Assembly: GCA_005888635.1 (NCBI GenBank)
Contig: VBAW01000017.1
Location: 4,537 to 68,536 of the forward strand
Source: Candidatus Bathyarchaeota archaeon
GTDB taxonomy: Archaea; Thermoproteota; Bathyarchaeia; 40CM-2-53-6
DNA length: 64,000 bases
Direction of reading: 5' to 3'
Part shown: piece by piece, positions 4,849 to 58,881 of the stretch
Layout of the letters: each line of letters starts with the position of its first letter
How positions within the stretch are numbered: position 1 is the first letter of the stretch
The notes under the pieces: model-generated
Told to the model about the DNA's origin: nothing
Database searches by the model: none
What the model saw: only the letters and a program-made list of their open reading frames with translations
Translations under genes and position numbers: made by a program

Positions 4849-4906
4849 CAGGCTGGGGAACAGACAACTGTGCTAGGATTCCCGATTTTTGGGGCGATGT
4901 TGGTTG

Positions 4907-5039
4907 TGGCGGGCCCGCCGGGAATTGAACCCGGGACAGCCGGGTGTCTTCCGCGAGGTAAAAGCTTCACCAGAGATAGCTCTTCCGGTGCTCTACCTCT
5001 TCAGGATCCCTGTTAGGAATCTGGCTGAGCTACGGGCCC
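4907..5039 (-). tRNA. tRNA-Lys (anticodon UUU) with three inferred introns and an encoded CCA
   Basis: Minus-strand exons reassemble to GGGCCCG TA GCTC AGCCAGGTA GAGC A CCGGG CTTTTAA CCCGG CTGTC CCGGG TTCAATT CCCGG CGGGCCC G CCA, 74 nt plus CCA. Inferred introns are 23 nt in the D-loop (about 5020-4998), 19 nt inside the anticodon stem (4984-4966) and 13 nt at canonical position 37/38 (4958-4946). The anticodon lies at 4962-4960. Confidence 0.8.
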
Positions 5040-8093: not shown

Positions 8094-8217
8094 ATCCCCG
8101 ATTGAAATGTCAAGTTATTCTTGATGAAACCTTTCTCATTCATCCATAGTAAGTTTCAGTTCTCTTCCGGGGAATATTGGGAAGGTTTAAGCTTGCACGC
8201 TTTCGGGTAGCGTGATT

Positions 8218-8395
8218 GCCCAGGAAATCAGTATCCGGGCTCGCGCCCCGTCCGTAAAATCCGGACGCGTTAAGGTAGTATAGCCCGGTCCACGGCTTGC
8301 GGGAGCCGGCCGAGAGTATGCACGGCTGTCACCCGTGCGACACTCGAAACGAACGGTCGAGCGCACGGCGGGTTCGAATCCCGCCCTGGGCGCCA
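8218..8395 (+). tRNA. tRNA-Asp (anticodon GUC) with three inferred introns and an encoded CCA
   Basis: Exons are 8218-8224 (GCCCAGG), 8276-8292 (TA GTAT AGCCCGGTCCA), 8316-8341 (GTAT G CACGG CTGTCAC CCGTG CGAC) and 8367-8392 (G GCGGG TTCGAAT CCCGC CCTGGGC G), followed by CCA. The acceptor stem forms a perfect 7 bp. The anticodon GTC is at 8328-8330. Inferred introns are 51, 23 and 25 nt. Confidence 0.8.
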
Positions 8396-8787
8396 AGCCA
8401 CTACACGACATCACTTCGACGCAATGGAGGATTATCTAGAATCGTCATGCTTCAAGTTGAACTATCGGGAACCCTGCCTAGAAACAAGGCTGGCTGACCA
8501 AGTGTCACAACATGCGAGGACCGCACACCTTGATGATCAGTCCAGCTTATCGGTGCTTACGTGATGACCCCGCACTAGCGCCACGCTTCCGACTATCTCG
8601 CAATTGGGAGATTATTCTGGGCGCTGCTCGATGCCGAGCCAAACAGAAGACTCAAGGTTGTATCGATTGTAGCCAGAACAATAATGCGAGTTTCTTGACT
8701 CATGTACGGCATGTGTACCCACTTGTGTTCTTGAGTACTTTAATGGCCCATGACGGGTCGAAATACTCTCGGTTGTAGACGTGTCGG

Positions 8788-16104: not shown

Positions 16105-18777
16105 ATGACGAGCAGGACCAGTTCTTCCCAGGCCCGACTGGTTGGAATCTTCGTACTTGTCCTCATAATATCTCTCGCCGAGTTCGCTGCTCTGCTCCTT
16201 GATTACCAGAACAACCGGTACCTCCGCCAATACGTCTCAGACAATCTTGGCACAATAATCTTAGCCACGATCGGCCTCCTTTTCGTCGCAGGGGGCGCAG
16301 GATACTTAGTCTTCAAGAGACTTGGAATCCCGAAGTCACCCGGACCCCGTGTCCCCACGTTCGCGCGAATCGGCTCCTCCGTAGGAAGAAGATACAAGCT
16401 GATAATCGTCTTTTGGATTCTGCTATTTGCGGCAAGTTTTCCGTTATCTCAACAACTCTCTCAAGTCACTACTTCAAGCACCAGCGGCGGACAATCCAGT
16501 TCCTCTCAATCTGCTCTAGCCCAGAATCTTATGGCTCAAGAATTTCCCCATCCCCAGTCTAATGCAAGCGCCATAATTCTCCTCCAAGGAAACAATGTTA
16601 CCGACAACGCGACCAAAATCTTCACTCTTCACCTAGAGCAACGCCTTGAGGCACCAAGAGTCCTCAACAGTCTCGAGAATCTCACGACAATCTACACTAT
16701 CGCCAGGATAGCCCTCATTGGAGCCTATTTGCAAAAGGGCTACAACTTCACTGCGGCGCAATCAAGTGCCAACCAGACCCTATGGGCTGATACCCTGTAT
16801 GAAATCCTGTCTCAATATCCCAAACTGATCCCACCGGCGATCATCCAGAACTTCATCAGTCCGAACAAGAACGCAATGATCATTCTGGTAACCTTCTCCC
16901 AGGCTCCCGGCTCGTTCGGCTCAGCAGACACCGACCCGATACTGAAGAACGTAGTAACTATGCGAAACATCATCTCCCAACTCAAAGCAAGCGATCCCGA
17001 ACCCTTACAGACATACGTTACAGGTGACCTAGCCACCACAGCCGACTCTTCTCTGGGAAGCAACGCCGACCTGGGTCGCATCGAACCCGTCACAGTCGGC
17101 GCCATCCTTGTTCTAGCTGGACTGTTCTTCCTTGCAATCGTCACTCCCTTCGTACCGCTTGCTACCGTTGGAATGGCGCTGCTGATGGCAGAAGGCGGCC
17201 TTTACCTCATCGGCAAATACATCATCCCTATCCAAGACACTACCACCACATTCCTGTTCACGATAATGCTTGGGGTCGGTACAGACTACGCCATCTTTCT
17301 AATGGCCCGTTACCGTGAAGAACGCGTAGAAGGCCGCGACAAGGCCAAAGCTATCCAGACTTCCATAACCTGGTCAGGAGAGAGCATCGCCACTAGCGCG
17401 ACCACTGTCATAATCGCGTTCGGGGCAATGACGTTAACCAGCTTCACCCTCCTCAGATCCATCGGCGTCGGCCTGGGCTTCGGCGTCTTGATTGCACTTC
17501 TAGTAAGCCTGACACTAATCCCCTCGCTCATTCTGATCGCGGGAGACCGGATATTTTGGCCTACTTCCGGGAAGAGATTCGAGGGTTATGCGGCTCGTGC
17601 GCGGAAGAGGAGAACTGAAAGGCCCGGATATTTCCGGCGAGCTGCAAGCTTCAGCGTCAAAAGACCCGTCCTAGTCTTAGGATTGGCTCTGATCATATCC
17701 ATCCCAGCGATCTACGTATCACTAACAGGGTCGACCTCGTACGACTTTGCAGCGGGTCTTCCAGCGGCCGAAAGCGTCAAGGGTATCACTGCTCTAGAAC
17801 AGAGCTTCGGCGCTGGTCAAATAGGCCCTACGCAAGTACTCGTGCAATTCCCAACAACCATTCTCGCAAACGGAAATCTCAGCGCGGGCGCACGTGCAAG
17901 CCTAGAAAAGCTGAGCCAGGCCATCGCCAACTTGACCAATGTCAAGGAAGTCACGGGACCTACTCGGCCCAATGGAATCGCGATAACGGGGACCAATCTA
18001 GCAGACATAGGACGCGACAATCGGACCGCCATGCTGACTGTCCTATTTGCTGACGAGCCATTCACCCAAAACTCTCTCAACACAGTCACTCAGATACGGA
18101 ACCTCTTAACAAGTCTTCAGAACTCCGACGCGTCGCTGGCTCAGGACGCCGTACTGGTAGGAGGCGCATCCGCATCCACACTGGATTTCGCCAATGAGAC
18201 GGTCAACCAGTTCAATACAATCAGAATATTGACAGTCGCAGCCATATTCGTCGTCTTGCTGCTAGTTCTCGGCTCCTATCCGCTAGCAATAACCGGGATA
18301 CTATCCATAGGCCTGAGCATAATCTGGGCTTACGCAGCCACTCTTCTCTTCTTCAACAACGTGCTCCAATCAGGGGTCCTCTTCATCATCCCCCTCGTAC
18401 TATTTCTGCTCCTTTATGGAATCGGTATGGACTACAACATCTTCATTCTAACCAGGATCAGGGAAGAAGCACAGAAGGGTAAGGAGACCCGACAAGCAGT
18501 TGTAGACGCCGTCGACAGAACCGGGGGAATAATAACGGCTCTAGCGCTTATCCTTGCGGGAGCACTGGGCTCACTACTGCTCTCATCCAATCGTCTTCTC
18601 GAAGGTTTCGGTTTCGCGATCGCCTTAGCTGTCGTCCTTGACGCAATGGTCGTGCGGACATATCTCGTCCCGGCAATCATGTCACTTCTCGGCCCTAGAG
18701 CATGGTGGGGTCCCAATCGGCTGAGAAGGGTACGATTCGACAAGAAAAGCAATCCACAATCCTCCAGCGATGCCTAG
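16105..18777 (+). CDS. MMPL/RND-superfamily membrane transporter
   Basis: 890 aa with duplicated modules. Each module has a TM bundle and the MMPL hallmark (GVGTDYAIFLMARYREE and GIGMDYNIFILTRIREE), separated by large extracytoplasmic loops. Confidence 0.9.
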   Translation: MTSRTSSSQARLVGIFVLVLIISLAEFAALLLDYQNNRYLRQYVSDNLGTIILATIGLLFVAGGAGYLVFKRLGIPKSPGPRVPTFARIGSSVGRRYKLIIVFWILLFAASFPLSQQLSQVTTSSTSGGQSSSSQSALAQNLMAQEFPHPQSNASAIILLQGNNVTDNATKIFTLHLEQRLEAPRVLNSLENLTTIYTIARIALIGAYLQKGYNFTAAQSSANQTLWADTLYEILSQYPKLIPPAIIQNFISPNKNAMIILVTFSQAPGSFGSADTDPILKNVVTMRNIISQLKASDPEPLQTYVTGDLATTADSSLGSNADLGRIEPVTVGAILVLAGLFFLAIVTPFVPLATVGMALLMAEGGLYLIGKYIIPIQDTTTTFLFTIMLGVGTDYAIFLMARYREERVEGRDKAKAIQTSITWSGESIATSATTVIIAFGAMTLTSFTLLRSIGVGLGFGVLIALLVSLTLIPSLILIAGDRIFWPTSGKRFEGYAARARKRRTERPGYFRRAASFSVKRPVLVLGLALIISIPAIYVSLTGSTSYDFAAGLPAAESVKGITALEQSFGAGQIGPTQVLVQFPTTILANGNLSAGARASLEKLSQAIANLTNVKEVTGPTRPNGIAITGTNLADIGRDNRTAMLTVLFADEPFTQNSLNTVTQIRNLLTSLQNSDASLAQDAVLVGGASASTLDFANETVNQFNTIRILTVAAIFVVLLLVLGSYPLAITGILSIGLSIIWAYAATLLFFNNVLQSGVLFIIPLVLFLLLYGIGMDYNIFILTRIREEAQKGKETRQAVVDAVDRTGGIITALALILAGALGSLLLSSNRLLEGFGFAIALAVVLDAMVVRTYLVPAIMSLLGPRAWWGPNRLRRVRFDKKSNPQSSSDA

Positions 18778-20208: not shown

Positions 20209-20337
20209 TGGCGGGCCCGCGGGGATTTGAACCCCGGACCTCTAGCCGGAGATTTTTCTCGAATCTCCTACAGCTGACTCCGATGGTGAAACCCCACTTA
20301 GGGGGCTGCCGCTCTATCCAGGCTGAGCTACGGGCCC
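20209..20337 (-). tRNA. Multi-intron tRNA, isotype unresolved (best parse gives loop CUUUCAA, Glu-UUC, tentative)
   Basis: On the minus strand the 5' part reads GGGCCCG TA GCTC AGCCTGGATA GAGC and the 3' part reads CGGGG TTCAAAT CCCCG CGGGCCC G CCA. Between them are 74 nt where 23 are expected. My parse is G GCAGC C [12 nt] TTTCA [11 nt CCATCGGAGTC] A GCTGT AG [28 nt] GTC. The 11-nt element resembles the 13-nt 37/38 intron of tRNA-Lys (CCTCGCGGAAGAC). Confidence 0.7.
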
Positions 20338-20392
20338 AGAACAGACCCGGAGCGAAAGGATAGTTAATGATTCCTCACGGATGACGGGCTAG

Positions 20393-21531: not shown

Positions 21532-22848
21532 CTAAGTTAGTATCTTTGCCATTTCTTCCACTACTCGATTCTTCGGAACGTTTCTTTCCTCGCCAGTCTT
21601 CATGTCTCTCAACCGCACATTGCCCTCCTTGAGCTCTCTAGGACCTACAATCACAATGATTCGAACCTTGGCCGAGTCGGCATAATCCATCTGTTTTTTC
21701 AATGGACGCTCTTTGAGATCTCTGTCCGCGCGCAGTCCGCTATCTCGCAACGCTCGCATCACCTTGATGGTCTCGTCTCGCACGTCTTCGCCTGCCATTG
21801 CAACGTAGACCTGTGGATTCTGTTCCAGATCTGGGAAGAGCCCCTTCTTTTCGAGGGAGATCATGAGCCTCTCGAAGCCCCCTGCCACGCCGGTTGCAGG
21901 CATGTCTCGTTTTCCGTATATTCGACAGAGCTTGTCGAAACGGCCACCGCCAAACACGGCACCGACATCCTCGCCAGCTTGATCGTACGCTTCGAAGACT
22001 GTTCCGTCGTAGTAGCTTATCCCTCTCACAATTCTTAGGTCCACTTGGACCTTGGACCTTTTTCCTAGGGAGTCGACGTTGTCAATGGTTCCTGTGAGTT
22101 CCTGTAGTCCTTTGCTGATCAAGTCATTCTTCGGGAGTTTCTTCTCTAGATCGGGTAGGACTTTGTCGGCGTCTCCGCCGATATCAGCGAACCCCATGAC
22201 GCGTTTCACTTTGTCTTGGGAGAGCCCCGCTCTGCCTAGTTCTCCTTCGATCTGTTCGGGACCCTTTTTGCCCATTCCGTCGATGATTCGTAGCAATCTC
22301 TCGAGTTCCTCTTGTGAGCGGACGCCTATGGTCTGGAGGAACCCTTCTGCGAGTTTTCTGTTGCTGACTCGGACTTCGTGATCTTTCAATCCGACTTTGT
22401 CTAGAATGTCGGAACCTAGGCTGATGATCTCCGCATCAGCAGTGGGTTCAGCTACTCCATAGATTTCCGCGTCCCATTGTGTGTGGTATCTGTATCTGGC
22501 GTATTGTGGCTCGTCGTATCGCCAGACTCCTCCGATGCATCCGATCTTTATGGGTTCAGGAAGGTCGAATCGGTTGGCGATCATCCGGGTCATGCCGACC
22601 GTTAAGTCGAATCGGAGACCCAGGTTTCGCCCTGCTTTGTCTTTGAACCAGTAGATTTCTTCTCGCACTCCGGGGCCAGATTTTGCTTCGAGAGTCTCAA
22701 GATTTTCCACTGGGCTGGGCTCTAACAGTTGGAACCCGTAGCTCCAGAGTACTTGGCGGATTTTGTCAGCGAGCCAAATTCTCTTGGTCATCTCTTCCGG
22801 TTCTATGTCCTTCATTCCGCGGGGGAGTGTGAATTGAGTCTCAGACAA
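21532..22848 (-). CDS. hisS: Histidine--tRNA ligase
   Basis: 438 aa with the class II aaRS/HisRS motifs LPRGMKD, RYDEPQ..RYR, DAEIYG and GGGRFDKL, plus a C-terminal anticodon-binding domain. Confidence 0.92.
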   Translation of the reverse strand: MSETQFTLPRGMKDIEPEEMTKRIWLADKIRQVLWSYGFQLLEPSPVENLETLEAKSGPGVREEIYWFKDKAGRNLGLRFDLTVGMTRMIANRFDLPEPIKIGCIGGVWRYDEPQYARYRYHTQWDAEIYGVAEPTADAEIISLGSDILDKVGLKDHEVRVSNRKLAEGFLQTIGVRSQEELERLLRIIDGMGKKGPEQIEGELGRAGLSQDKVKRVMGFADIGGDADKVLPDLEKKLPKNDLISKGLQELTGTIDNVDSLGKRSKVQVDLRIVRGISYYDGTVFEAYDQAGEDVGAVFGGGRFDKLCRIYGKRDMPATGVAGGFERLMISLEKKGLFPDLEQNPQVYVAMAGEDVRDETIKVMRALRDSGLRADRDLKERPLKKQMDYADSAKVRIIVIVGPRELKEGNVRLRDMKTGEERNVPKNRVVEEMAKILT

Positions 22849-29049: not shown

Positions 29050-29152
29050 TGGCGGGCCCGGTGGGATTCGAACCCACGATTTTGGGCTCTCTTCACTCTG
29101 AAATCGAAAGCTCCGAAGGCCCACGTCTTGGTCCTGGCTCGACTACGGGCCC
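29050..29152 (-). tRNA. tRNA-Arg (anticodon UCG) with a canonical 24-nt intron and an encoded CCA
   Basis: The minus strand reads GGGCCCG TA GTCG AGCCAGGACCA AGAC G TGGGC CTTCGG [24 nt, 29112-29089] A GCCCA AAATC GTGGG TTCGAAT CCCAC CGGGCCC G CCA. The intron 3' segment GAAG pairs with loop CTTC, as expected for a bulge-helix-bulge (BHB) splice motif. Confidence 0.85.
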
Positions 29153-54482: not shown

Positions 54483-56066
54483 CTAGATTTCTAGACGAAC
54501 TCTGTACTCACCAAATCTGCTTCTGAAAAGGTCGCTGATTTCCCCGACCGTACATTCAGACCGCACCGCTCTCAAAATGTCATCGACCAAGTTAGAATCC
54601 CCAGAAGCCGCACTACCAAGTCTTGACAGAGCGCTGTTCACCTTCGCTTTGCTTCTTGAATTCTTGAACTTCCTCAGTTGTTGAATCTGTCGTCTCTCCA
54701 CGCTTGGGCTAATTCGCTGAATGTTCACATCTTTCTGATCCCTTTCTTCGAACCGGTTTACTCCGACAATTACAGTCTGACCCTCATCCACGGATCGCTG
54801 AAACTTGTAGGCGCTTTCTTGAATCTGTCTGTGGACAAAGCCGGATTCGATAGCCTTCCTCGCTCCTCCAAGCTGTTGGACTCTTTTGATGAGATCTGTG
54901 ACTTTGGTTTCGATCGTTCTTGTCAAGGATTCCAGATAGTAACTTCCCCCTAGCGGATCCGCCGTGCGGCTCACACCAGATTCGTACGCGATAATCTGCT
55001 GAGTCCGTAGCGCGATTTTAACAGAATCCTCCGTGGGAAGACCCAGAGCCTCGTCACGGGAGTTTGTATGAAGCGACTGGGAGCCTCCGAGAACGGCCGC
55101 TAGTGCCTGGATCGAGACTCGAGCAATGTTATTGTCGGGTTGTTGGGCGGTCAGAGTCTCGCCGCTCGTCTGAGCATGAAATCGGAGTTTGCAAGATTCA
55201 GGGTCGTGAGCTTTGAAACGTAGTCGCATTATGCTCGCCCAGATTTTTCGGGCTGCTCTGAACTTTGCGATCTCTTCTAGAAAGTCGTTTCGACATGCGA
55301 AGAAGAATGAAAGCTGAGAAGCAAAGTCATCGATCTTGAGACCGCGAGCTAGCACGGCCTCTACGTATTCAATCGCATTTGAGAAACAGAACGCAAGTTC
55401 CTGAATGGCGTCTGCTCCAGACTCACGAATGTGATAGCCACTGATACTGATGGGATGCCAATGAGGCATCTTCCGAGCAGAATATTCTATGAGATCGACC
55501 GCCAGTCTCAGAGAAAACTCCGGCGGATAGATGTAGGTATTCCGGGCAATGTACTCCTTCAGAATATCATTCTGGGTAGTTCCACGCAACTGCCTCTGCG
55601 GGACCCGTTGCTCCAGTCCAGCCGCAGCATACAAGCAGAGCAGAATCGGAGCGGTAGAATTGATTGTCATGCTAGTGCTGATCTTTCCGAGATCGATTCC
55701 ATCGAACAACCGTCTCATATCGTCGATACTGCTGACAGCGACTCCGACCTTGCCCACTTCCCCATGCGCTCTTGGATGATCAGAGTCAAGGCCGAGCTGC
55801 GTTGGAAGATCGAAGGCAGTGCTAAGTCCAGTCTCTCCATGAGAGATCAGATACTTGAATCGCCGGTTGGTTTCGCTGGCTGAACCGAATCCAGTGTACT
55901 GTCTCATCGTCCAAAGTCGGTCCCGGTACATGCTCGGGTAGATTCCTCTAGCATAAGGGAACTCTCCAGGCTTTCCGAGGGAACGAACCATTCCCCTAGA
56001 AACGTCTCTGTTGTCGTACGATGTCTTGACAGGTATTCCTGAGTCTGTGGTGATGCGATCAGGCAT
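54483..56066 (-). CDS. Methylmalonyl-CoA mutase, large (substrate-binding TIM-barrel) subunit
   Basis: 527 aa. RQYTGF and YIARNTYIYPP carry the Tyr/Arg pair characteristic of methylmalonyl-CoA mutase. It has no C-terminal B12-binding domain. Confidence 0.9.
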   Translation of the reverse strand: MPDRITTDSGIPVKTSYDNRDVSRGMVRSLGKPGEFPYARGIYPSMYRDRLWTMRQYTGFGSASETNRRFKYLISHGETGLSTAFDLPTQLGLDSDHPRAHGEVGKVGVAVSSIDDMRRLFDGIDLGKISTSMTINSTAPILLCLYAAAGLEQRVPQRQLRGTTQNDILKEYIARNTYIYPPEFSLRLAVDLIEYSARKMPHWHPISISGYHIRESGADAIQELAFCFSNAIEYVEAVLARGLKIDDFASQLSFFFACRNDFLEEIAKFRAARKIWASIMRLRFKAHDPESCKLRFHAQTSGETLTAQQPDNNIARVSIQALAAVLGGSQSLHTNSRDEALGLPTEDSVKIALRTQQIIAYESGVSRTADPLGGSYYLESLTRTIETKVTDLIKRVQQLGGARKAIESGFVHRQIQESAYKFQRSVDEGQTVIVGVNRFEERDQKDVNIQRISPSVERRQIQQLRKFKNSRSKAKVNSALSRLGSAASGDSNLVDDILRAVRSECTVGEISDLFRSRFGEYRVRLEI

Positions 56067-57123: not shown

Positions 57124-58881
57124 GTGACTATTTTGGCAAAGGGCTACTGGAAGAAAGTTCTCGACGATATCAAGAGGCAGCGGAAGGCTAAGCCTTCAAC
57201 CTTCAACGCGAAATATCTCGCCAAGCTGAAGCGCCAAGAAGCGGAATGGCAGGCAAAGACTCTCAAACAGTGGACGAAGGACAGCCCGGAGCGGAAGCAG
57301 GAGTTCAGGAACCCTTCCAACATTCCGATCAAACGAGTCTACACTCCAAGAGACGTCGCGTACCAGGACGAGTCTCGCGACGCTGGTCTTCCAGGCGAGT
57401 ATCCTTACCTCCGAGGGGTCTATCCTACGCTGTACAGAGGGCGGCTCTGGACCATGCGAATGTTCTCAGGCTTCGGCACTCCAGAGGACACGAACAAGCG
57501 GCTCCACTATCTCCTAGAACACGGTGAAACAGGATTGAGCATAGCTTTCGACATGCCGACATTGTATGGATATGATCCTGATCATGAACGGGCAGAGGGG
57601 GAGGTGGGACGATGCGGCGTCTCAGTTGGTTCGCTGAAGGACATGGAGATCATTCTGGAAGGAATCCCGTTGGAAAAGGTGAGTACGAGCATGACGATCA
57701 ACGCACCTGCCTCCGTCTTGACCGCGATGTATGTTGGTGTCGCGGAGAGACAGGGATTGAAGCCGAACGAGTTGAGAGGGACCGTCCAGGCGGACATTCT
57801 CAAAGAGTATATTGCGCAGAAAGAGTGGGCGTTCCCTCCAGAAGCGCATCTCCGAATCATCCGTGACATGATGGTCTACTGCAGCAAGGAGATGCCGCAG
57901 TGGAACTACATCAGCATCAGTGGCTATCACATTCGCGAGGCTGGATCTAGCGCCGTCCAAGAACTAGCGTTTACACTCGCGGACGGCTTCGCGTATGTTG
58001 ATCTTGGAATCGAATCTGGTTTGAAAGTGGATGATTTCGCACCGCGATTGTCTTTCTTCTGGAACTGTGGAATGGACTTCTTCGAAGAGATCGCAAAATT
58101 CAGGGCGGCAAGAAGAATCTGGGCACGCGTTATGAGAGAGAAATACAAAGCAAAAGACCCCCGATCCTTGCTGTTGAGGACACACGCTCAGAACTCTGGT
58201 GCGTCACTAACTTGGCAACAGCCACTGAACAATATTGTTCGGACTACAATCGAAGCGCTAGCCACAGTCCTCGGCGGGACGCAGTCTCTTCATACAAACT
58301 CCTACGATGAAGCGTGGGCTCTTCCTTCAGAACAGGCAGCTACCGTCGCACTGAGAACCCAACAGATCATCGCGGAAGAGACAGGCGTCACGGACACAAT
58401 CGATCCGCTTGGCGGTTCGTACTACCTGGAATGGCTTACTGATGAGATGGAGGAAAAAGCGTTCGAGTATTTTGACAAGATCGAACGTGTAGGAGGGTTG
58501 CTGAACGCGATCAAGACCGGATTCTTGCAGCGCGAGATTGCAGAGACAGCCTACCGTTACCAGCAGGAACTTGAGCGGGACGAGAGGGTCGTGGTTGGTG
58601 TGAACAAGTATCAGGTCGATGAGAAACAGCCAATCGATACCCTGAAGATCAACGAGGAGGCTCAGAGGCGACAGATCGAGCGGATAGTCCGGGTCCGAGA
58701 CACAAGGGACAATGCAAAGGTTCGGGAAGCATTGGACGAGTTGCGCAAGACGTTCGAGGACGAGAAGTCCAATTCCATGTACCCCATCATCAAAGCGGTC
58801 CGAGCCTACGCAACGCTAGGCGAGATCATGGATGTCGGTCGGAAGGTCTTCGGAGACTACAAGGAGCCTCCAATCCTCTAA
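57124..58881 (+). CDS. Acyl-CoA mutase large subunit, isobutyryl-CoA-mutase-like
   Basis: 585 aa. RMFSGF, AFDMPTL and [11 protein letters not shown] carry the Phe/Gln pair that I recall as diagnostic of IcmA, in contrast to Tyr/Arg in MCM. It is divergent from meaB. Confidence 0.8.

What the first reader, a model, noticed from the sequence alone, without database searches (positions are those of the whole stretch)
8218..8395. tRNA-Asp with three introns, one of which splits off the 5' acceptor strand
The 5' acceptor strand GCCCAGG (perfectly complementary to CCTGGGC at 8385-8391) is separated by 51 nt from the rest of the D-arm. The junction is ambiguous because AGG is repeated, so the intron could lie anywhere from 4/5 to 7/8. 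A 23-nt insertion sits in the D-loop and a 25-nt insertion sits in the variable loop. The anticodon arm CACGG CTGTCAC CCGTG is itself uninterrupted. Introns this close to the 5' end need a relaxed-specificity endonuclease and can be evolutionary intermediates towards split tRNAs.
Basis: inference. Interest (0 to 1): 0.65.

Follow-up and report, generated by a model that had tools for sequence, protein, structure and literature searches.

The report
Three-intron tRNA-Asp gene of Bathyarchaeia

Summary
The locus is a real tRNA-Asp(GUC) gene that ARAGORN and Rfam both miss. Removing three segments gives a textbook 78-nt tRNA-Asp with encoded CCA.

All three segments have archaeal bulge-helix-bulge (BHB) geometry: a 4-bp central helix between two 3-nt bulges. 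The same design occurs in 72 distinct sequences from soil Bathyarchaeia genomes and metagenomes. Exons do not vary, intron loops vary freely, and the stem of intron 1 shows compensatory changes at all 5 pairs.

- The variable-region intron is 26 nt (8342-8367), not 25.
- The 5' intron is not 51 nt. The BHB cuts at 8248/8249 and 8272/8273. Exon 1 is therefore a second GCCC at 8245-8248, and intron 1 is 24 nt at position 4/5. No 51-nt register forms a BHB.

It sits where these genomes normally place tRNA base 1, 32 nt from the TATA-like box. I read it as the start of a 27-30-nt leader that helps build the first BHB and is later removed, presumably by RNase P.

No spliced RNA was seen. Multi-intron archaeal tRNAs, and an intron at 3/4, are already described, so this is a new member of a known kind.

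The parts
8186..8191 (+). TATA-like box TTTAAG (putative archaeal promoter)
   Evidence: TTTAAG is present in 71 of 73 distinct relatives. The spacer to GCCCAGG is 24-27 nt, and 26 nt in 61 of them. In 24 other tRNA genes from related contigs, a TATA-like hexamer starts 29-33 nt upstream of tRNA base 1. That it works as a promoter is inferred.
8218..8224 (+). Leader copy of the 5' acceptor strand (GCCCAGG); probable 5' end of the primary transcript
   Evidence: It is the exact complement of 8385-8391. It is GCCCAGG in 72 of 73 distinct relatives, with one GCCCAGA. A T precedes it in 72 of 73. It lies 32 nt from the start of the TATA-like box, where base 1 of ordinary tRNA genes lies. No BHB forms at any junction here.
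8225..8234 (+). Variable leader linker
   Evidence: Length is 5-13 nt, with 35 distinct sequences among 73 relatives.
8235..8240 (+). Leader element CCGGGC, complementary to D-loop GCCCGG (8283-8288) and also to the leader copy
   Evidence: It is CCGGGC in 71 of 73 relatives. The two variants are C-to-T changes that keep G-U pairing. It pairs with the D-loop in the single-sequence fold, in the fold with BHB 1 enforced, and in the RNAalifold consensus. Because nothing varies, there is no covariation to choose between partners.
8241..8244 (+). Leader linker TCGC: TC pairs with G6 and G7 (2-bp exon-side helix); GC is the first half of the central helix of BHB 1
   Evidence: It is TCGC in 70 of 73 relatives, and all variants end in CGC. 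The pairs 8241-8275 and 8242-8274 are kept in 72 of 72 sequences.
8245..8248 (+). Exon 1, tRNA positions 1-4 (GCCC)
   Evidence: G1 and C2 complete the central helix GCGC/GCGT. C3, C4 and C8249 form the 5' bulge. The cut after the second bulge base falls at 8248/8249.
8249..8272 (+). Intron 1, 24 nt, at position 4/5; relaxed BHB
   Evidence: The central helix is 4/4 in 72 of 73 relatives. The intron-side helix is 4-7 bp, and all 5 of its pairs show changes on both sides (GTCCG/CGGAC, ATTCC/GGAGT, GTCCA/TGGAC, ATCCC/GGGAT, GTCT/AGAC). The exon-side helix is only 2 bp. Length is 18-27 nt in relatives.
8273..8291 (+). Exon 2, positions 5-20b (AGG TAGTATAGCCCGGTCC)
   Evidence: It is invariant in alignment A2. 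The joined D-loop GGTCC-AGTATG matches the intronless relatives L137, L155 and L160.
8292..8314 (+). Intron 2, 23 nt, in the D-loop (20b/21); relaxed BHB
   Evidence: The central helix CGGT/GCCG is 4/4 in 73 of 73 relatives. The intron-side helix is 4-6 bp and the exon-side helix 1 bp.
8315..8341 (+). Exon 3, positions 21-48 (D-stem 3' strand, whole anticodon arm with GTC, 4-nt variable loop CGAC)
   Evidence: This stretch was the query for the metagenome scan, so its invariance there is by design.
8342..8367 (+). Intron 3, 26 nt, between the variable loop and the T-stem (48/49); canonical hBHBh'
   Evidence: It was the top hit of the BHB scan. The exon-side helix is 5 bp. The central helix is TGCG with CGCA, CGCG or CGTG, 4/4 in 73 of 73. 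The intron-side helix is 5-7 bp. Length is 22-28 nt in relatives.
8368..8395 (+). Exon 4, positions 49-76: T-arm, 3' acceptor strand CCTGGGC, G73, encoded CCA
   Evidence: Sequence conservation among relatives stops at 8396.

Best explanation
This is the working tRNA-Asp(GUC) gene of a soil Bathyarchaeia lineage.

Structure. Four exons of 4, 19, 27 and 28 nt are separated by three BHB introns of 24, 23 and 26 nt. The introns lie at tRNA positions 4/5, 20b/21 and 48/49.

Proposed pathway (every step is inferred; none was observed as RNA):
1. Transcription starts about 8215-8218, downstream of the TATA-like box at 8186-8191. The precursor therefore carries a 27-30-nt 5' leader.
2. Exon 1 is only 4 nt long, so the leader has to supply the exon side of the first BHB. 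Its last two bases (GC) plus G1-C2 pair with GCGU of the intron to form the 4-bp central helix. C3-C4 sit in the bulge. Leader UC pairs with G6-G7. Leader CCGGGC can lengthen this helix by pairing with D-loop GCCCGG.
3. The first seven leader bases, GCCCAGG, can meanwhile hold the free 3' acceptor strand.
4. The archaeal splicing endonuclease cuts after the second base of each 3-nt bulge. An RtcB-type ligase joins the exons.
5. The true acceptor stem then forms, and RNase P cuts at 8244/8245 to remove the leader.

The product is a normal 78-nt tRNA-Asp.
For: The cleavage rule was calibrated on the canonical-intron tRNA-Arg(UCG) in the same window. An unbiased BHB scan of 8150-8450 ranks the three proposed introns first, second and joint third (fifth in the printed list, at a score of 9 shared with six unrelated candidate pairs), including the unexpected 8248/8272 pair.

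Splicing in silico gives a tRNA-Asp(GTC) that ARAGORN accepts.

Five species-level Bathyarchaeota genomes and 119 metagenome loci were examined. 102 of 124 loci share the architecture, 72-73 of them distinct.

On alignment A2, 99.1% of BHB cells pair, against 28-48% when partners are slid by 1-3 columns. All 5 pairs of the intron 1 stem change on both sides. One-sided changes elsewhere are G-C to G-U.

Bulge bases and intron loops vary while exons do not.

The intronless relatives L137, L155 and L160 have exactly the predicted joined D-loop and the 4-nt variable loop.

A distant Bathyarchaeia tRNA-Asp (L046) also has a 24-nt BHB intron at 4/5 behind a long leader.

Promoter spacing: the TATA-like box lies 30-33 nt from the leader copy and 54-64 nt from exon 1, compared with 29-33 nt from base 1 in 24 other tRNA genes.

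Folding with BHB 1 enforced pairs the leader copy with the 3' acceptor strand and CCGGGC with the D-loop (-74.1 kcal/mol, against -69.6 with the leader hairpin). After splicing, the mature fold plus leader hairpin (-48.8) is as stable as the precursor-like fold (-48.7).
Against: There is no RNA evidence of splicing. Contigs from 12 RNA-labelled runs hold only the unspliced gene. Several run on into flanking DNA, so they may be DNA carry-over.

The transcription start, the RNase P step and the endonuclease type are inferred, not observed.

Introns 1 and 2 have exon-side helices of only 2 bp and 1 bp.

The leader elements, the acceptor stem and the D-loop never vary, so no covariation shows which pairings the leader really makes.

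In L046 the equivalent leader 7-mer (GCGCAGG) does not match that gene's own acceptor strand (GCCCTGG). This argues against a strict need for an acceptor copy.

The whole precursor folds no better than shuffled sequence (z = -1.6).

Part of the exon invariance follows from how the relatives were collected (exact exon 3 query, then a parsing pattern).
Confidence: 0.75

Rival explanations
1. The upstream GCCCAGG (8218-8224) is the real 5' exon, and a single 51-nt intron somewhere between 4/5 and 7/8 is removed.
For: The upstream copy is a perfect, nearly invariant complement of the 3' acceptor strand. It sits at exactly the distance from the TATA-like box where base 1 of other tRNA genes lies. 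The minimum-energy fold pairs it with the 3' strand.
Against: None of the registers 3/4 to 7/8 has a BHB. The central helix reaches at most 3 of 4 pairs, with flanking helices of at most 2 bp in one register and 0-1 bp in the rest. A conserved, covarying BHB inside the supposed intron would be cut at 8248/8249 anyway, which joins the downstream GCCC to AGG. One relative has GCCCAGA upstream with an unchanged 3' strand.
Confidence: 0.08
2. The exon and intron structure is as in the best explanation, but the upstream GCCCAGG...CCGGGC module has no role in RNA folding. It would be a leftover of how the gene was disrupted (duplication or mobile-element recombination), or a DNA-level promoter-proximal element. 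RNase P simply removes a passive leader, or transcription starts downstream of the module.
For: A 5' tRNA gene fragment upstream of an intron-gaining tRNA gene has been described in Caldiarchaeum and attributed to mobile-element integration and recombination (PMC3293823). In L046 the corresponding 7-mer has drifted away from that gene's own acceptor sequence. No covariation supports any leader pairing.
Against: The two elements are fixed in 71-72 of 73 distinct relatives. The 5-13-nt linker between them and the spacer upstream vary freely (35 and 48 distinct sequences respectively). That indicates selection rather than a neutral relic. The only changes in CCGGGC are C-to-T, which preserves pairing with G. 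A5 of the copy is conserved even though it would be bulged in the leader hairpin.
Confidence: 0.2
3. The locus is a decaying or unexpressed tRNA pseudogene whose insertions happen to resemble introns.
For: No spliced RNA was detected. Standard tRNA finders reject the locus.
Against: All four exons are invariant across 72 distinct sequences, while intron loops, bulge bases and flanks diverge and the intron 1 stem shows compensatory changes. The spliced product is a flawless cloverleaf with GUC, G73 and CCA. No other tRNA-Asp lies in the window.
Confidence: 0.03

Closest known systems
Multi-intron tRNA genes of Thermoproteales, for example Pyrobaculum calidifontis pre-tRNA-Glu(UUC) and P. islandicum pre-tRNA-Pro(UGG) with three introns (PMC4390854; PMC4033280; PMC8450103)
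   Same: Up to three short BHB introns in one tRNA gene, at non-canonical positions, mixing strict and relaxed motifs. Standard tRNA finders miss them.
   Different: The lineage is different: mesophilic soil Bathyarchaeia rather than hyperthermophilic Crenarchaeota. The isoacceptor and positions differ too (4/5, 20b/21, 48/49, with the canonical 37/38 site empty). The gene has a long, conserved, structured 5' leader.
Intron at position 3/4 in some Thermoproteales tRNAs, cited as the extreme case (PMC4090602, citing Sugahara et al. 2008)
   Same: An intron within the first few bases of the 5' acceptor strand, so leader bases have to take part in the BHB.
   Different: Here the position is 4/5. 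I could not read the primary paper, so I do not know whether the 3/4 cases have a comparably long leader or a leader copy of the acceptor strand.
Caldiarchaeum subterraneum tRNA-Thr-II with an upstream 5' tRNA fragment, tRNA-Thr-F (PMC3293823)
   Same: A partial copy of the tRNA's 5' end lies upstream of an intron-containing version of the same tRNA gene. This offers an origin model for the copy.
   Different: There the fragment is 1.8 kb away, or more than 500 kb, and is separated by a recombinase-carrying element. Here the copy is 7 nt long, 20 nt upstream, behind the same promoter, and conserved in 72 of 73 distinct relatives.
Split tRNA-Asp(GUC) of Aeropyrum and Thermosphaera, and permuted tRNAs of Thermofilum pendens (PMC3218864)
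   Same: Disrupted tRNA-Asp genes occur in TACK archaea. An unusually long distance from promoter to tRNA was the clue there, as it is here.
   Different: Those are made from separate or permuted transcripts joined at a BHB formed by leader and trailer. This gene is contiguous and in normal order.

Membership tests
Archaeal BHB (splicing-endonuclease) tRNA introns | Two 3-nt bulges on opposite strands, separated by a 4-bp central helix, with the cuts at symmetric positions in the bulges | tested here: met
   All three introns meet it. The central helix is 4/4 in the window, and in 72/73, 73/73 and 73/73 relatives. Overall 99.1% of cells pair. The register was calibrated on tRNA-Arg(UCG) at 29053-29152.
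Archaeal BHB (splicing-endonuclease) tRNA introns | Canonical hBHBh': both outer helices have at least two Watson-Crick pairs (definition in PMC7714728) | tested here: not met
   It is met only by intron 3 (exon side 5 bp, intron side 5-7 bp). Intron 1 has C-G plus U-G on the exon side. Intron 2 has 1 bp. Introns 1 and 2 are therefore relaxed motifs. These are still accepted members of the wider family in Crenarchaeota (PMC4033280, PMC4090602).
Archaeal BHB (splicing-endonuclease) tRNA introns | Removing the introns restores a canonical cloverleaf tRNA | tested here: met
   ARAGORN calls a 78-nt tRNA-Asp(GTC) after splicing in silico. The product matches intronless relatives at both informative joints.
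Archaeal BHB (splicing-endonuclease) tRNA introns | Spliced RNA exists in cells | tested here: inconclusive
   Contigs from 12 RNA-labelled soil and rhizosphere runs show only the unspliced form and no joints. Ordinary RNA-seq assemblies rarely recover mature tRNAs.
Archaeal BHB (splicing-endonuclease) tRNA introns | The host encodes a broad-specificity endonuclease (alpha2-beta2 or epsilon2 type) able to cut relaxed BHBs | not tested
   No endonuclease gene was looked for in the window or in the related genomes.
tRNA-Asp(GUC) | Anticodon GUC, discriminator G73, class I cloverleaf with a short variable loop | tested here: met
   One search shows GTC at positions 34-36, G73, the G10-U25 pair and the 4-nt variable loop CGAC. 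Aminoacylation cannot be tested here.
Split or permuted tRNA genes | Exons encoded at separate loci or in permuted order, joined through a leader-trailer BHB | tested here: not met
   All exons are collinear within 178 nt, behind one TATA-like box, in every relative.

The most novel reading that the evidence does not exclude
The 5' leader acts as a built-in folding guide for a tRNA whose first exon is too short to fold by itself. Before splicing, the leader's GCCCAGG stands in for the broken 5' acceptor strand by pairing with CCUGGGC. Its CCGGGC pairs with the D-loop and so provides the missing exon-side helix of the first BHB. After splicing, the two leader elements pair with each other. That releases the tRNA body so that RNase P can cut. 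This would be a programmed strand exchange encoded in a pre-tRNA leader. I found no description of such a thing in the papers I could read.
Probability: 0.25. Interest if true: 0.65.

Novelty: new member of a known kind. Interest (0 to 1): 0.45.

Why it matters
- Heavy tRNA gene fragmentation is described mainly for hyperthermophilic Thermoproteales. Here it is also common and stably inherited in abundant mesophilic soil Bathyarchaeia. All four tRNA genes in this window carry introns, about nine in total.
- Such genes are invisible to ARAGORN and Rfam. Genome completeness and tRNA inventories for these lineages will therefore be underestimated unless BHB-aware tools are used.
- A 4-nt first exon pushes the processing machinery towards its limit, close to the 3/4 intron cited as the extreme case. 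The conserved leader gives a concrete, testable case of how a precursor builds a BHB when almost no 5' exon is available.

Tried and rejected
- ARAGORN and Rfam (gathering and E<=10) on the raw locus found no tRNA.
- All 51-nt intron registers, and all 27-nt registers left after removing intron 1, were tested for a BHB. None was found. I therefore rejected a second, nested intron that would remove the leader copy.
- Twelve RNA-labelled runs were searched for spliced forms. There were no joints. One contig starting at 8273 is explained by strain variation, not splicing.
- I considered a hairpin upstream of the leader copy (CACGCT...AGCGTG, 8197-8214). It is seen in some clades only and lies upstream of the likely transcription start, so I dropped it.
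- I considered a tandem-duplication origin, comparing 8218-8244 with 8245-8271. They share GCCC and ATCCGG. The similarity is too weak to claim.
- An IMG/VR scan for exon 3, looking for mobile elements at this tRNA, gave 0 hits.
- The RNAalifold consensus was not informative about the leader copy.
- Two papers could not be consulted: the look-up of Sugahara 2007 (PMC1852824) failed, and I did not try to fetch Sugahara 2008. The comparison with the 3/4 introns therefore rests on reviews.
- The sigma-70 promoter scanner was not used because it does not cover archaeal promoters.

Full report
**What is in the sequence.**
- GCCCAGG is at 8218-8224 and its exact complement CCTGGGC is at 8385-8391.
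- There is an intact anticodon arm carrying GTC, a T-arm, G73 and an encoded CCA ending at 8395.
- ARAGORN finds no tRNA anywhere in the window.
- Rfam finds only two other tRNAs at its gathering score. Even at E<=10 it sees only the T-arm of this locus.

If this is a gene, standard tools cannot see it.

**Calibrating the splice rule.**
The tRNA-Arg(UCG) at 29053-29152 (minus strand) has one canonical intron. Reading it gives the rule I used throughout. Each strand runs 5' to 3' as outer helix, 4-nt central helix, 3-nt bulge, inner helix, and the cut falls after the second bulge base. This agrees with published descriptions of the bulge-helix-bulge motif (PMC4090602, PMC7714728).

**An unbiased scan.**
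I scored every possible pair of cut sites in 8150-8450 with that rule.
- Best hit: 8341/8367. This is a 26-nt intron with a 5-bp exon-side helix, a 4/4 central helix and a 5-bp intron-side helix.
- Second: 8248/8272. This is a 24-nt intron that nobody had proposed. Its 5' exon ends in a second GCCC at 8245-8248.

None of the possible 51-nt registers starting from the upstream GCCCAGG forms a BHB. Neither does any 27-nt register that would remove the upstream copy after intron 1 is gone.

Removing 8249-8272, 8292-8314 and 8342-8367 yields a 78-nt sequence that ARAGORN calls tRNA-Asp(GTC), with a normal cloverleaf.

**Relatives.**
A scan of species-representative genomes with the D-arm sequence found the same gene in five soil or sediment Bathyarchaeota genomes: BA_7, BA_23, BA_25, UBA185 and one further MAG. 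BA_7 is nearly identical to the window.

A metagenome scan with exon 3 returned 119 loci. Of 124 loci that hold exon 3, 102 parse to one architecture, and 73 of these are distinct. As far as I inspected them, the rest are cut by contig ends (five were not seen, because that output was cut) or belong to three intronless genes. The architecture is:
- TTTAAG, then 24-27 nt, then GCCCAGG
- 5-13 nt, then CCGGGC, then TCGC
- GCCC | intron 1 (18-27 nt) | AGGTAGTATAGCCCGGTCC
- | intron 2 (23-24 nt) | exon 3 | intron 3 (22-28 nt) | T-arm, CCTGGGC, GCCA

**Conservation and covariation.**
BHB geometry is kept in essentially every relative. On a 72-sequence alignment, 99.1% of the proposed pair cells are standard pairs. 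When partners are slid by 1-3 columns the figure is 28-48%. All five pairs of the intron 1 stem show changes on both sides. Changes in the central helices are G-C to G-U transitions.

Bulge bases, intron loops, the leader linker and the promoter spacer vary freely. Exons do not vary. One caveat applies: exon 3 was the search query, and the parsing pattern fixed parts of the other exons.

Three intronless tRNA-Asp genes from other organisms (L137, L155, L160) carry the same exon 3. They show exactly the predicted joints, GGTCC-AGTATG in the D-loop and a 4-nt variable loop CGAC followed directly by the T-stem.

This settles the length of intron 3 at 26 nt rather than 25.

**The 5' end.**
Exon 1 is the downstream GCCC (8245-8248), so the intron sits unambiguously at 4/5. 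The upstream GCCCAGG is still not an accident.
- It is fixed in 72 of 73 distinct relatives and is preceded by T in 72 of 73.
- It lies 30-33 nt from the start of the TATA-like box. That is the distance at which 24 other tRNA genes on related contigs place their first base (29-33 nt).
- Exon 1 lies 54-64 nt from the box.

I infer that transcription starts at or just before 8218, and that 8218-8244 is a 27-nt leader.

The last four leader bases have clear roles. GC forms half of the central helix, and UC pairs with G6-G7.

CCGGGC is complementary to three things: D-loop GCCCGG, the leader copy, and the future 5' acceptor strand. The leader copy is complementary to the 3' acceptor strand. Folding the window's precursor, with or without BHB 1 enforced, pairs the copy with the 3' strand and CCGGGC with the D-loop; the RNAalifold consensus reproduces only the CCGGGC-D-loop pairing and leaves the copy unpaired. 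After splicing, the mature fold plus a leader hairpin is as stable as the precursor-like fold.

None of these partners ever varies, so comparative data cannot choose among the pairings. In the one distant relative with a 4/5 intron (L046, acceptor GCCCTGG), the leader 7-mer is GCGCAGG and does not match that gene's own acceptor strand. The leader model is therefore a hypothesis. The exon and intron map is well supported.

**Expression.**
Twelve RNA-labelled soil and rhizosphere runs hold contigs of close relatives. All of these contigs are unspliced, and some run into unrelated flanks, so they may be DNA carry-over or read-through. Splicing is therefore inferred from structure and conservation only.

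**Comparison with what is known.**
- An intron at 3/4 is cited as the extreme case (PMC4090602).
- Relaxed motifs are linked to broad-specificity endonucleases (PMC4033280, PMC3488258).
- Two literature searches on tRNA introns in Bathyarchaeota or Bathyarchaeia turned up no paper that treats them: the first returned a single paper, which names Bathyarchaeota only in a footnote, and none of the papers listed by the second mentions Bathyarchaeia.
- A 5' tRNA fragment upstream of an intron-gaining tRNA gene has a precedent in Caldiarchaeum (PMC3293823).

I therefore file this as a new member of a known kind. The conserved leader module is the one feature for which I found no description.

**Verdict.**
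The gene and its three introns are real. The 51-nt intron and the 25-nt length are not. Interest is moderate.

Noticed in passing
window 4906-5039 (-): Another hidden tRNA gene (GGGCCCG...GGTTCAATTCC...CCA). ARAGORN accepts it as tRNA-Lys(UUU) only after three BHB-like insertions are removed, roughly 5022-4999, 4984-4966 and 4947-4935. The anticodon-stem pairing of that solution looked poor, so the junctions are not settled.
   Followed up: partly
window 20212-20337 (-): This Rfam tRNA hit is best explained as tRNA-Arg(CCU) with two introns: 23 nt at 20298-20276, and a strong 28-nt BHB intron in the variable region at 20269-20242. In intron mode ARAGORN mislabels it 'tRNA-Pyl (cta)'. Position 33 would be C, which is unusual.
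   Followed up: partly
window 4906-5039, 8218-8395, 20212-20337, 29053-29152: All four tRNA genes found in this 64-kb window contain introns, about nine in total. That density is like the one reported for Thermoproteales, yet this is a soil Bathyarchaeia genome with about 51% G+C.
   Followed up: partly
L046 (Bathyarchaeia MAG CAYGZB010000101), about 2003-2282: A distant tRNA-Asp with introns at 4/5 (24 nt), in the D-loop (21 nt) and at 68/69 in the 3' acceptor strand (30 nt). The 4/5 and 68/69 introns share the direct repeat CAAAG-N-GATGTGCAAT, which suggests that an intron was copied between the two acceptor strands.
   Followed up: partly
L005, L030, L066 (other Bathyarchaeia genomes): tRNA-Glu(CUC) genes with insertions in the D-loop, the anticodon loop and the T-loop. 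L019, L096 and L099 have D-loop and T-loop insertions. Multi-intron tRNAs seem widespread in this class.
   Followed up: no
window 8197-8214 and the region between TATA box and tRNA start at 20338-20370 (-): The spacer between the TATA-like box and the tRNA start carries a recurring motif, TTTC..CCGGGT / CTTTCGGGTAGC, in several tRNA genes and clades. In some clades it can form a small hairpin (CACGCT/AGCGTG, AGGCT/AGCCT, AGCT/AGCT). Its meaning is unknown.
   Followed up: no
window 54483-56066 (-) and 57124-58881 (+): Two full-length methylmalonyl-CoA mutase homologues lie within 3 kb of each other. A histidyl-tRNA synthetase is at 21532-22848 and an MMPL-family transporter at 16105-18777.
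   Followed up: no
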